Below are positions 7,858 through 8,650 of a stretch of DNA of 64,000 nt, in pieces. Source of the stretch: the human T2T-CHM13v2.0 reference genome, Homo sapiens; NCBI RefSeq assembly GCF_009914755.1, contig NC_060934.1; one strand, written 5' to 3'. The notes beneath the pieces are model-generated. The model did no database searches and had not been told where the DNA came from. It saw only the letters and a list, made by a program, of their open reading frames with translations. Numbering within the stretch: position 1 is the first letter of the stretch; the number at the start of each line of letters is the position of its first letter. A program made the translations under genes and the position numbers.

Positions 7858-8018
7858 CCAATACAATAGTGTTGGGATGTGCAGCCTAATGGGAGGTATT
7901 TAGGTCATGCAGGCTCCACCCTCATGAATGGATTAATGCCATTTATAAAAAGGCTTGAGCCTGCAAGTTTGATCTCTTGCTCTTTCTTGCCCTCTCTTTG
8001 CCCTTCTGCCATGAGATG

Positions 8019-8271
8019 TGTAGGGGTGGGTTGCCCCTACACACCTGTGGGTGTTTCTCGTAAGGTGGGACGAGAGATTTGGAAAAGAAAAAGACACAGA
8101 GACAAAGTATAGAGAAAGAAATAAGGGGACCCGGGGAACCAGCGTTCAGCATATGGAGGATCCCCTTATTTCTTTCTCTATACTTTGTCTCTGTGTCTTT
8201 TTCTTTTCCAAATCTCTCGTCCCACCTTACGAGAAACACCCACAGGTGTGTAGGGGCAACCCACCCCTACA
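8019..8271. mobile_element. Palindromic HERV-K(HML-2) LTR5_Hs U5-U5 mini-element
   Basis: Right arm 8161-8271 matches the LTR5_Hs 3' end (...gagaaacacccacaggtgtgtaggggcaacccacccctaca). Left arm 8019-8129 is its exact reverse complement. The 31-bp spacer is the adjacent LTR sequence in antisense. Flanked by AGATG at 8014-8018 and 8272-8276. Confidence 0.93.
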
Positions 8272-8650
8272 AGATGACTCACCAAACAGGTCCTTATGAT
8301 ATGCCAGCCCTTCAATCTTAGACTTCCCAGCGTCTCGAACCTTGAGCCAACACACTTCTGTTCATTATAAATTACCCAGTCTGATATTCCGTTAGCACAA
8401 AATGGACTATGACACTAAGACCTGCAATAACACAAGAATGTCCACTGTTACCACTTTTATTCAATATTCTACTAGAAGTTCTGGACAGTGCAATCAGCAA
8501 GAAAAATAAATAAAAAGCATTTATATTTGACAGGAAAAGGTAAAACTATCTTTATTCTCAAACAACATGAATGTCTTTATAGAAAATCTGATGGACACTA
8601 CTAAGAAGCTACTAGAACTAATACATGAATTTATCAAGATTGTAGGTTAT

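What the first reader, a model, noticed from the sequence alone, without database searches (positions are those of the whole stretch)
8014..8276. Integrated U5-U5 fold-back of HERV-K(HML-2) LTR5_Hs: a retroviral 'MITE' that may derive from self-primed minus-strand strong-stop DNA
Seen in the sequence: a 253-bp insert (8019-8271) with perfect 111-bp inverted arms and a 31-bp spacer. Both ends are the U5 terminus (TGTAGGGG...CCCCTACA), there is no U3, and a clean direct repeat AGATG flanks it; removing the insert and one AGATG restores the host MST (ccatgagatgac). Established: a normal solo LTR5_Hs is about 1 kb and begins with U3 (TGTGGGGAAAAG). Integrase joins CA ends and makes short TSDs (usually 5-6 bp for HML-2). 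Minus-strand strong-stop DNA starts at the U5 end, and in HIV-1 it can self-prime in vitro. Inference: 8019-8164 has the polarity of nascent minus-strand DNA. Its 3' end ...GGATCCC can pair with GGGA at 8126-8129 (TCCC junction microhomology at 8161-8164) and copy back to U5. Converting that hairpin into duplex DNA gives a substrate with two U5 att ends that integrase could insert. It would be a germline fossil of aberrant reverse transcription and possibly an unrecognised class of ERV insertion.
Basis: partly seen in the sequence, partly recalled or inferred. Interest (0 to 1): 0.92.

Follow-up and report, generated by a model that had tools for sequence, protein, structure and literature searches.

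The report
Folded-back retroviral U5 insertion, recurrent
A 253-base insert made only of the last 146 bases of a HERV-K LTR folded back on itself was inserted the way a retrovirus inserts; the same fold-back junction occurs at two other human loci, which points to a mis-primed reverse-transcription product that was nevertheless integrated into the germ line.

Summary
Window 8019-8271 is a 253-bp palindrome (perfect 111-nt arms, 31-nt spacer) made only of LTR5_Hs positions 823-968. Both ends are U5 termini and AGATG flanks both sides. Paralogous copies of the host repeat carry one pentamer, so AGATG is a true target-site duplication.

New here: the element is not unique. The same junction occurs at exactly three places in T2T-CHM13:
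- the window;
- a 260-bp element on chr15 with a 6-bp duplication and 8 bases of primer-binding site at one end;
- the 5' end of the catalogued human-specific 10q24.2 provirus (ERVK-17, "lacking a 5' LTR"), which has an intact 6-bp duplication.

A scan for head-to-head U5 pairs at spacings 0-270 found only these three.

The long arm ends 25-30 nt downstream of AATAAATA, within 0-6 nt of a published HML-2 transcription start (position 826).

Best reading: run-off minus-strand strong-stop DNA snapped back on a 4-nt homology, copied itself, and was integrated by the viral integrase.

Main rival: the window copy is the recombinational remnant of a fold-back-headed provirus.

My literature searches found no description of this structure. 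I rate it a new variant of a known kind, of high interest to retrovirologists.

The parts
8014..8018 (.). Left copy of target-site duplication AGATG
   Evidence: Paralogues of the host repeat carry a single pentamer here (16 of 29 with a 5-base overlap).
8019..8164 (-). Long arm: reverse complement of LTR5_Hs positions 823-968 (146 nt), uninterrupted. On the + strand it has the polarity of minus-strand DNA, beginning at the base next to the primer-binding site.
   Evidence: segment map; identical over all 146 nt to 15 of 26 ordinary LTR5_Hs copies sampled; this stretch starts 146 nt from the LTR end in 26 of 26 LTRs, at position 823 in the 19 that are 968 bp long.
8019..8041 (.). Terminal mini-palindrome TGTAGGGG-7 nt-CCCCTACA of the U5 end (mirrored at 8249-8271)
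   Evidence: I6. DNA hairpin -7.8 kcal/mol, z -3.0, 2 of 200 shuffles fold as well.
8126..8129 (+). GGGA, the proposed acceptor site on which the 3' end of the long arm primed
   Evidence: paired with 8161-8164 in the minimum-energy DNA fold. One search lists two other GGGA sites (8067, 8134).
8130..8160 (.). 31-nt spacer (loop); part of the contiguous long arm
   Evidence: all positions that break the palindrome lie here.
8161..8164 (+). TCCC junction microhomology, shared by the end of the long arm and the start of the short arm
   Evidence: query 143-146 assigned to both segments.
8161..8271 (+). Short arm: LTR5_Hs positions 858-968 in forward orientation, ending in the U5 terminus ...CCCCTACA
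8272..8276 (.). Right copy of target-site duplication AGATG
7880..8013 (.). Host interspersed repeat interrupted by the insert (continues at 8277 to about 8400)
   Evidence: 766 first-look candidates, of which the 40 scored all matched at 80-100% identity (one is the window's own copy); both flanks align contiguously in paralogues. Family name not tested.

Best explanation
The insert is a by-product of HERV-K(HML-2) reverse transcription that the viral integrase then placed in the germ line. Proposed sequence of events: (1) Minus-strand DNA primed by tRNA-Lys at the primer-binding site was copied to the 5' end of an RNA that began at about LTR position 823. This gave a 146-nt strong-stop DNA ending ...GGATCCC-3'. 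(2) Instead of transferring to the 3' end of the genome, its last four bases (TCCC) paired with GGGA 32 nt upstream on the same strand or a sister strand. (3) Reverse transcriptase extended it back to the U5 end, and into the tRNA, giving a PBS tail. (4) A complementary strand was made, giving a 253-bp duplex with an authentic U5 end on each side. (5) Integrase inserted it with a 5-bp duplication. Shown: the anatomy, the duplication, the recurrence of the junction, the PBS bases at chr15, and the attachment to a provirus at 10q24.2. Inferred: the order of events, the RNA 5' end at 823, and how the second strand was primed.
For: Anatomy and duplication. Both ends are exact U5 termini next to a duplication of the size ordinary LTR5_Hs insertions make (17 solo LTRs: 7 with 5 bp, 9 with 6 bp, 1 imperfect). 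The same 23-nt junction occurs at exactly three places in the assembly with no mismatch; the 7 further hits all have 3 mismatches, against 5 in the reversed-pattern control. The flanks differ and the duplications are AGATG, ATCTAT and CACCTG, so these are separate integrations. The 10q24.2 copy differs from the window copy by about 10%, so the junction arose at least twice. Head-to-head U5 pairs at spacings 0-270 number three, all with this junction. The chr15 copy contains TC plus 8 PBS bases. These bases are never part of an LTR, so an intermediate still joined to its primer was involved. At 10q24.2 the short arm runs into PBS-leader-gag, and the whole 7389-bp unit has an intact 6-bp duplication with an inverted U5 end on the left. 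The fold-back therefore existed before integration. Both 10q24.2 arms share a 6-nt deletion found nowhere else in the genome and absent from the same provirus's 3' LTR, as expected if one arm was copied from the other. The long arm ends at LTR 823, 25-30 nt after AATAAATA. Bhardwaj 2015 (PMC4379556, section 3.5 read) reports RNA-seq starts at 826. Benachenhou 2009 (PMC2664473, passages) says, citing Kovalskaya 2006, that HML-2 transcripts start close to AATAAA. An RNA starting at 823 has a 7-bp stem at its very 5' end (z -2.7), a TAR-like arrangement. Self-priming of strong-stop DNA from such a hairpin is documented in vitro for HIV-1 (PMC6088434, section 5.1 passages).
Against: The DNA snap-back pairing is weak. 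In the 146-nt fold it appears in the minimum-energy structure but with ensemble frequency 0.0002, and it is absent from the centroid. The isolated 39-45-nt hairpin is only -2.5 to -2.6 kcal/mol, and 188 of 200 shuffles fold as well. The GGGA at 8134 would pair about as well but was never used. The match to the published start site is not exact. The landmarks in Bhardwaj's figure legend are offset by -3 (GC box, TATA, Inr) and +3 (E box) from a 968-bp LTR, so their 826 is my 823-829. Their truncation assay did not confirm that start, and the same paper the canonical start. The HIV-1 review states that self-primed products are dead ends and are not seen in endogenous reactions. Second-strand synthesis is unexplained by data. 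Sequence cannot tell a directly integrated 253-bp duplex from a collapsed longer provirus. No orthologous empty site could be examined.
Confidence: 0.55

Rival explanations
1. The fold-back had the same origin but entered the genome as the 5' end of a longer provirus of the 10q24.2 type (inverted U5 - U5 - PBS - genes - 3' LTR). Homologous recombination between the 107-111-nt forward U5 arm and the U5 of the 3' LTR later removed everything in between. This left the 253-bp form with its original duplication, in the same way solo LTRs arise.
For: A provirus of exactly this architecture exists, with an intact duplication. Recombination between its two direct U5 copies would give precisely the window structure. 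Most HML-2 insertions are solo LTRs (stated in Subramanian 2011, PMC3228705, passages).
Against: The homology is about 110 bp, not about 970 bp, so recombination should be much rarer (general knowledge, not measured here). Even so, 2 of the 3 fold-back loci are short. No HML-2 internal sequence remains in the window or beside the chr15 copy. The window arms are still identical to each other and to the commonest LTR5_Hs sequence, which leaves little time.
Confidence: 0.25
2. The fold-back arose during reverse transcription by strand switching guided by the short inverted repeat in U5 (GGGATCC ... GGGTCCC), without a physical DNA end at 823. A growing minus strand that had copied U5 down to position 858 jumped onto another minus-polarity strand at TCCC and copied it to its 5' end. 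On this reading the nearness of 823 to a transcription start is a coincidence.
For: The two junction partners are the two halves of one stem. The final sequence is identical under this model. At 10q24.2 the short arm is the one joined to the PBS, which this order of synthesis also explains.
Against: It does not explain why the copied arm begins at the point where two published studies place RNA 5' ends. Four bases of homology are available at other sites. All three events show the same end point.
Confidence: 0.12
3. An ordinary solo LTR or provirus integrated here and was later rearranged by the host (fold-back inversion with loss of U3 and R).
For: Palindromes do arise by replication errors in genomic DNA (general knowledge).
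Against: The inverted arm ends exactly at a U5 terminus directly next to an intact duplication. This holds at all three loci, with three different duplications, and all three share the identical junction. The chr15 copy has PBS bases that a solo LTR lacks.
Confidence: 0.03
4. Assembly artefact in T2T-CHM13.
For: None found. Raw reads could not be examined.
Against: The palindrome is far shorter than the reads used for such assemblies. The same architecture sits at three loci with different flanks. The 10q24.2 locus was already listed as lacking a 5' LTR in earlier human builds (PMC3228705 table; PMC3590776 passages).
Confidence: 0.01

Closest known systems
TAR-dependent self-priming of HIV-1 minus-strand strong-stop DNA (in vitro; Guo et al. 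1997 as reviewed in PMC6088434, section 5.1 passages read)
   Same: A strong-stop DNA whose 3' end is the image of a 5'-terminal RNA stem folds back and is extended along itself. The window's long arm has that polarity and starts at the PBS-adjacent base, and the junction shows the expected microhomology.
   Different: The HIV-1 product is known only from cell-free reactions and is described as a dead end. Here the product is integrated, inherited and recurrent. The DNA hairpin is much weaker than cTAR.
Solo LTR5_Hs of HERV-K(HML-2)
   Same: Same sequence family, same TG...CA termini and same 5-6-bp duplication.
   Different: A solo LTR is about 968 bp of U3-R-U5 in one orientation. This insert has only positions 823-968, present twice in opposite orientations, with a U5 terminus at both ends.
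10q24.2 provirus ERVK-17 / c10_B (Subramanian 2011; Schmitt 2013)
   Same: It carries the identical fold-back junction and an integrase-type duplication.
   Different: There the fold-back replaces the 5' LTR of a 7.4-kb provirus. The passages I read describe it only as lacking the 5' LTR. Its U5 belongs to a different LTR5 sub-lineage (about 90% identity to the window copy).
HIV-1 proviruses with asymmetric LTRs (PMC9278108, passages read)
   Same: Integrated proviruses whose two LTRs differ because of errors and inter-template transfers during reverse transcription.
   Different: Those are deletions in one LTR. No inverted U5 duplication or miniature U5-U5 insert is described there.
MITEs (miniature inverted-repeat transposable elements)
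   Same: Small size, terminal inverted repeats, short flanking duplication.
   Different: MITEs are amplified families moved by a DNA transposase that excises them. Here there are two short copies with different left ends, and the ends are retroviral att sites. Retroviral integrase does not excise DNA (general knowledge).
L1 twin priming (recalled, not checked)
   Same: A reverse-transcription accident that leaves an inverted duplication in a germ-line insertion.
   Different: Different enzyme and target-primed chemistry, with a poly(A) tail and longer duplications; none of these is present here.

Membership tests
HML-2 integrase-mediated insertion | Insert ends 5'-TG...CA-3' directly abutting host DNA | tested here: met
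   TGTAGGGG...CCCCTACA at both boundaries.
HML-2 integrase-mediated insertion | 5-6-bp target-site duplication, single copy in the empty site | tested here: met
   AGATG on both sides. Single pentamer in 16 of 29 paralogues (paralogues, not orthologues). 17 ordinary solo LTRs: 7 with 5 bp, 9 with 6 bp, 1 imperfect.
HML-2 integrase-mediated insertion | Sequence belongs to LTR5_Hs | tested here: met
   146 nt identical to 15 of 26 sampled genomic LTR5_Hs copies. The family label comes from the finding and from papers; no repeat library was available.
Solo LTR | Complete U3-R-U5 in one orientation | tested here: not met
   Only LTR 823-968 is present, twice and inverted. No other HML-2 DNA in the window.
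Self-primed minus-strand strong-stop DNA product | One arm has minus-strand polarity and begins at the base adjoining the PBS | tested here: met
   8019-8164 = LTR 968->823.
Self-primed minus-strand strong-stop DNA product | That arm ends at the 5' end of the template RNA | tested here: inconclusive
   It ends at LTR 823. The published start at 826 maps to my 823-829 because of inconsistent numbering. The same paper canonical. Kovalskaya 2006 was seen only as a citation and a paraphrase.
Self-primed minus-strand strong-stop DNA product | The 3' end pairs with an internal site; the junction shows that microhomology | tested here: met
   TCCC/GGGA, 4 nt.
Self-primed minus-strand strong-stop DNA product | Stable 3'-terminal hairpin comparable to cTAR | tested here: not met
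   -2.5 kcal/mol; 188 of 200 shuffles fold as well. The RNA image of the stem is predicted.
Self-primed minus-strand strong-stop DNA product | Extension reaches the 5' end of the template and enters the tRNA primer (PBS copy) | tested here: inconclusive
   Not visible in the window copy, where integrase would remove it. PBS bases are present at chr15, and a full PBS follows the short arm at 10q24.2.
MITE / DNA transposon | Amplified family mobilised and excised by a transposase | tested here: not met
   Only two short copies plus one proviral copy in 3.1 Gb. The short copies differ at the left end. No transposase is involved.
L1-mediated retrotransposition | Poly(A) tail and 7-20-bp duplication | tested here: not met
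   No A-run at either end; 5-bp duplication.

The most novel reading that the evidence does not exclude
The junction is a fossil imprint of the 3' end of HML-2 minus-strand strong-stop DNA. If so, it fixes the 5' end of the RNA that was actually reverse-transcribed at LTR position 823, 25-30 nt after AATAAATA acting as a TATA box. That implies a very short R region and would settle the old puzzle of start sites 'between R and U5'. It would also show that self-primed strong-stop DNA is not a dead end. With its PBS tail it can stand in for plus-strand strong-stop DNA in the second strand transfer (10q24.2), or it can be made double-stranded and integrated alone (window, chr15). That would define a third structural class of retroviral insertion beside the provirus and the solo LTR.
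Probability: 0.4. Interest if true: 0.9.

Novelty: new variant of a known kind. Interest (0 to 1): 0.8.

Why it matters
Self-priming of strong-stop DNA has been a test-tube phenomenon, regarded as a dead end that nucleocapsid protein suppresses. Three inherited insertions with one identical fold-back junction would be the first natural record that such products form in vivo, survive and are integrated.

They would also give a nucleotide-level read-out of where the reverse-transcribed HML-2 RNA began. That speaks to the unresolved position of the HML-2 transcription start and R region.

For genome annotation, these elements are easily read as two unrelated LTR fragments or as a 'missing 5' LTR'. 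Recognising the class allows a systematic search in pangenomes and in other ERV families.

Tried and rejected
(1) Shared private variant. I first thought GTGTAGGGG was a private variant linking the window and chr15 copies. My recalled consensus was wrong: 15 of 26 ordinary copies have the identical 146 nt, so the idea was dropped.

(2) Exact equality of the long-arm end with the published start site 826. I withdrew this after finding that the paper's landmarks are offset both by -3 and by +3 from a 968-bp LTR. Only 'within 0-6 nt' stands.

(3) Locating the poly(A) site (R/U5 border) from polyadenylated genomic copies. The pattern search found nothing, so the length of R is not determined.

(4) Thermodynamic preference for the GGGA site used. 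Not supported.

(5) Origin of the 10q24.2 arm variants from another LTR lineage. The 6-nt deletion exists only in the two arms, so no donor lineage was found. A copying error before snap-back, or later conversion between the arms, remains open.

(6) Autointegration. Rejected because the internal junction joins two internal U5 positions and no CA terminus.

(7) Plus-strand snap-back at the viral DNA end. Rejected because it would centre the palindrome on the U5 terminus, not on position 823-858.

(8) Sources that were unavailable. Fuchs 2011 is not held. Kovalskaya 2006 and Macfarlane & Simmonds 2004 could not be read. Bhardwaj's Figure S3 was not seen.

I replaced it with nine 30-base bins using 16-mers.

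(10) Searching the literature for the printed LTR stretch gave only a primer listing.

Full report
OBSERVATION. The repeat finder gives one strong inverted repeat, arms 8019-8132 and 8158-8271 (114 nt, 99%). Comparing the element with its own reverse complement shows that every non-palindromic position lies in 8130-8160. The arms are therefore perfect over 111 nt with a 31-nt spacer. AGATG lies on both sides (8014-8018, 8272-8276).

WHAT THE PIECES ARE. I mapped the element onto a natural 968-bp LTR plus primer-binding site (the 5' LTR of a provirus in locus L026). Positions 8019-8164 are LTR 968->823 in reverse orientation, without interruption. Positions 8161-8271 are LTR 858->968 in forward orientation. 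The two segments share four bases, TCCC. There is no U3, and no other HML-2 sequence lies anywhere in the 64-kb window. The 146-nt long arm is identical to 15 of the 26 ordinary LTR5_Hs copies that the genome search returned. An early idea that the element carried a private variant rested on a wrongly recalled consensus and was dropped.

THE FLANKING REPEAT IS A TARGET-SITE DUPLICATION. The insert sits in an old interspersed repeat: 766 first-look candidates, of which the 40 scored all matched at 80-100% identity, one being the window's own copy. I aligned the left and right flanks separately to 29 paralogous copies. In 16 of them the two alignments overlap by exactly five bases, and three copies read ccatgagatgAC. 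The target therefore had one pentamer. These are paralogues, not orthologues; ape genomes were not available. Among 17 ordinary LTR5_Hs solo LTRs in my sample, 7 have 5-bp duplications, 9 have 6-bp duplications and 1 is imperfect. Five bases is thus normal for this integrase.

THE ELEMENT IS NOT UNIQUE. A search of the window's own assembly (T2T-CHM13) with the junction-bearing 146 nt returned two further places that match on both strands. A search with the 23-nt junction string found exactly three places with no mismatch. The other seven hits all had three mismatches, against five hits for the reversed control pattern. I then scanned for any head-to-head pair of U5 anchors (exact 16-mers) at spacings 0-270, in nine bins. 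That range covers every fold point from the anchors through U5 and back to the reported start sites. Only the same three loci appeared. Copies with mutated anchors would have been missed.

LOCUS 2, chr15:25,927,434-25,927,693. This is a 260-bp element flanked by ATCTAT on both sides. Its junction, spacer and right arm are identical to the window's. Its left end differs. In place of the last 25 bases of the inverted arm it has 33 bases in forward orientation: LTR 946-968, then TC, then the first eight bases of the primer-binding site. These join the inverted arm at position 943 with a 1-2-base overlap. PBS bases are never part of an LTR, so this element cannot come from a solo LTR. It points to an intermediate in which a plus-sense strand had been copied past the U5 end into the tRNA primer. 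The order of segments is what a second snap-back of that strand would give, but I could not explain why the left boundary lies at position 946. That position is the start of a stable terminal mini-palindrome (-7.8 kcal/mol, z -3.0), which recreates ...CCCCTACA-3' on the other strand.

LOCUS 3, chr10:100,703,746-100,711,134. This locus lies 573 kb from the window element. It is the catalogued 10q24.2 provirus ERVK-17/c10_B, listed as human-specific with no LTR-based age (Subramanian 2011, PMC3228705, table passage). Schmitt 2013 (PMC3590776, passages) describes it as lacking the 5' LTR, lying in an ABCC2 intron, absent from non-human primates, and carrying an intron-like 1372-bp env deletion. 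Read in proviral sense, the locus is:
- flank CAGGTG;
- inverted U5 (968->823);
- forward U5 (858->968);
- TC, PBS, leader, gag and the rest of the internal region;
- a 986-bp 3' LTR;
- flank CAGGTG.

An intact 6-bp duplication around a unit whose left end is an inverted U5 terminus shows that the fold-back existed before integration and that integrase used two U5 ends. Both arms share a 6-nt deletion and two adjacent changes that the U5 of the same provirus's 3' LTR lacks. The arms differ from each other at one CpG site. The deletion occurs nowhere else in the genome. This fits one arm being a copy of the other, made from a strong-stop DNA molecule other than the one that built the 3' LTR. 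Later mutation with arm-to-arm conversion is not excluded. This copy is about 90% identical to the window copy, so the junction arose at least twice independently.

WHERE THE LONG ARM ENDS. In 26 of 26 LTRs examined the long-arm sequence begins 146 nt from the LTR end, at position 823 in the 19 that are 968 bp long. AATAAATA lies at 793-800.
- Bhardwaj 2015 (PMC4379556, section 3.5 read) calls this motif the TATA box, gives 793 as the supposed canonical start, and reports RNA-seq starts mainly at 826.
- Their landmarks do not map consistently onto a 968-bp LTR: the GC box, TATA and Inr are at my position minus 3, and the E box at my position plus 3. Their 826 therefore corresponds to my 823-829. 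Their truncation assay did not confirm that start, and I could not see their Figure S3.
- Benachenhou 2009 (PMC2664473, passages) states, citing Kovalskaya 2006, that HML-2 transcripts start close to AATAAA, which may act as a TATA box.
- A 2026 paper (PMC13238051, passages) repeats that the start lies at the 3' end of the annotated R.

I saw Kovalskaya 2006 only as a citation. The long arm thus ends within 0-6 nt of an experimentally reported RNA 5' end, at normal TATA-to-start spacing (general knowledge). I could not find the poly(A) site from genomic fossils, so the length of R is open. Betaretroviruses such as MMTV have very short R regions (recalled, not checked).

FOLDING. An RNA starting at 823 is predicted to pair its first seven bases with bases 33-39, in both the minimum-energy and the centroid structure (z -2.7, 1 of 200 shuffles). 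This is a 5'-terminal stem, as TAR is in HIV-1. In the DNA image, the minimum-energy fold of the 146-nt minus strand does pair the terminal TCCC with GGGA 8126-8129. However, its ensemble frequency is 0.0002 and it is absent from the centroid. The isolated hairpin is only -2.5 to -2.6 kcal/mol, no better than shuffles, and the GGGA at 8134 serves as well. Thermodynamics therefore allows the pairing but does not explain why this site was chosen.

MECHANISM.
Shown:
- the arms, their polarity and the microhomology;
- integrase-type ends and duplications at three loci;
- PBS bases at chr15;
- continuity with a provirus at 10q24.2.

Inferred:
- Strong-stop DNA ran off at the RNA 5' end near 823.
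- Its 3' TCCC primed on GGGA of the same or a sister strand.
- Extension reached the U5 end and the tRNA, giving a strand with a PBS tail at its 3' end.
- That strand has the same business end as plus-strand strong-stop DNA, so it could make the second strand transfer and yield the 10q24.2 architecture.
- Alternatively, a primer annealed to the PBS tail would convert it into a 253-bp duplex with two U5 ends, which integrase inserted (window, chr15).

RIVALS. The main rival is that the window copy is the remnant of a 10q24.2-type provirus after recombination between its forward U5 arm and the 3' LTR U5. Sequence cannot exclude this; short homology and two short copies out of three argue against it. 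A second rival is hairpin-guided strand switching without a physical end at 823. Post-integration rearrangement and assembly error are very unlikely, given three loci with exact termini, three different duplications and one junction. Autointegration and plus-strand snap-back predict other junctions.

WHAT IS KNOWN. Self-priming of HIV-1 strong-stop DNA is an in-vitro phenomenon, called a dead end and not seen in endogenous reactions (PMC6088434, section 5.1 passages). I found no description of an integrated U5-U5 fold-back. The evidence for that absence is:
- six keyword searches and one search for the printed sequence;
- passages read in Subramanian 2011, Schmitt 2013, a 2026 pangenome preprint (10.64898/2026.09.22.753638), Macfarlane 2015 (PMC4422153) and the HIV asymmetric-LTR paper (PMC9278108).

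Subscription papers, repeat-library annotations and supplements were not visible, so an earlier mention cannot be ruled out.

VERDICT. I rate it a new variant of a known kind (an aberrant retroviral integration product) with a specific, testable mechanism, and of high interest.

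Noticed in passing
L001 1387-1419 (chr15:25,927,434-25,927,466): The left end of the chr15 fold-back carries LTR 946-968 + TC + 8 PBS bases in forward orientation, in place of the last 25 bases of the inverted arm. The segment order fits a second snap-back after copying into the tRNA primer, but the boundary at 946 is unexplained.
   Followed up: partly
window 8019-8271 and L041 9095-9335 (chr10:100,710,894-100,711,134): Two of the three fold-back loci lie 573 kb apart on chr10. Under uniform placement this has a chance of roughly 1 in 1000 (my arithmetic). Their sequences differ by about 10%, so one is not a copy of the other. Unexplained.
   Followed up: no
L013, reverse strand 1492-1617 (chr11, about 71,165,289-71,165,402): A U5-only LTR5_Hs fragment (LTR 847-968 plus TCT, 100% identical over 125 nt) sits in unique sequence with no flanking duplication. 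It may be another captured strong-stop-like fragment, inserted without integrase at one or both ends.
   Followed up: partly
L041 9095-9335 versus L041 1947-2092: Both fold-back arms of the 10q24.2 provirus share a 6-nt deletion and two adjacent changes absent from the U5 of its own 3' LTR. The deletion is unique in the genome.
   Followed up: yes
window 8019-8041 and 8249-8271: The last 23 bases of LTR5_Hs U5 form a stable mini-hairpin (8-9-bp stem, -7.8 kcal/mol, z -3.0), so either strand ends in ...CCCCTACA-3'. This may matter for integrase recognition of odd ends.
   Followed up: partly
PMC4379556, figure 5 legend, compared with L026: The promoter landmarks given for the 22q11.23 LTR Hs are offset by -3 (GC box, TATA, Inr) and +3 (E box) from a 968-bp LTR. 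That LTR has a 6-bp difference between Inr and the E box, or the numbering is inconsistent.
   Followed up: no
L016 (chr9, about 107,439,241): An LTR5_Hs copy only 415 bp long from its TGTGGGG start to its U5 end, with a 5-bp duplication (ATAAT): an internally deleted solo LTR.
   Followed up: no
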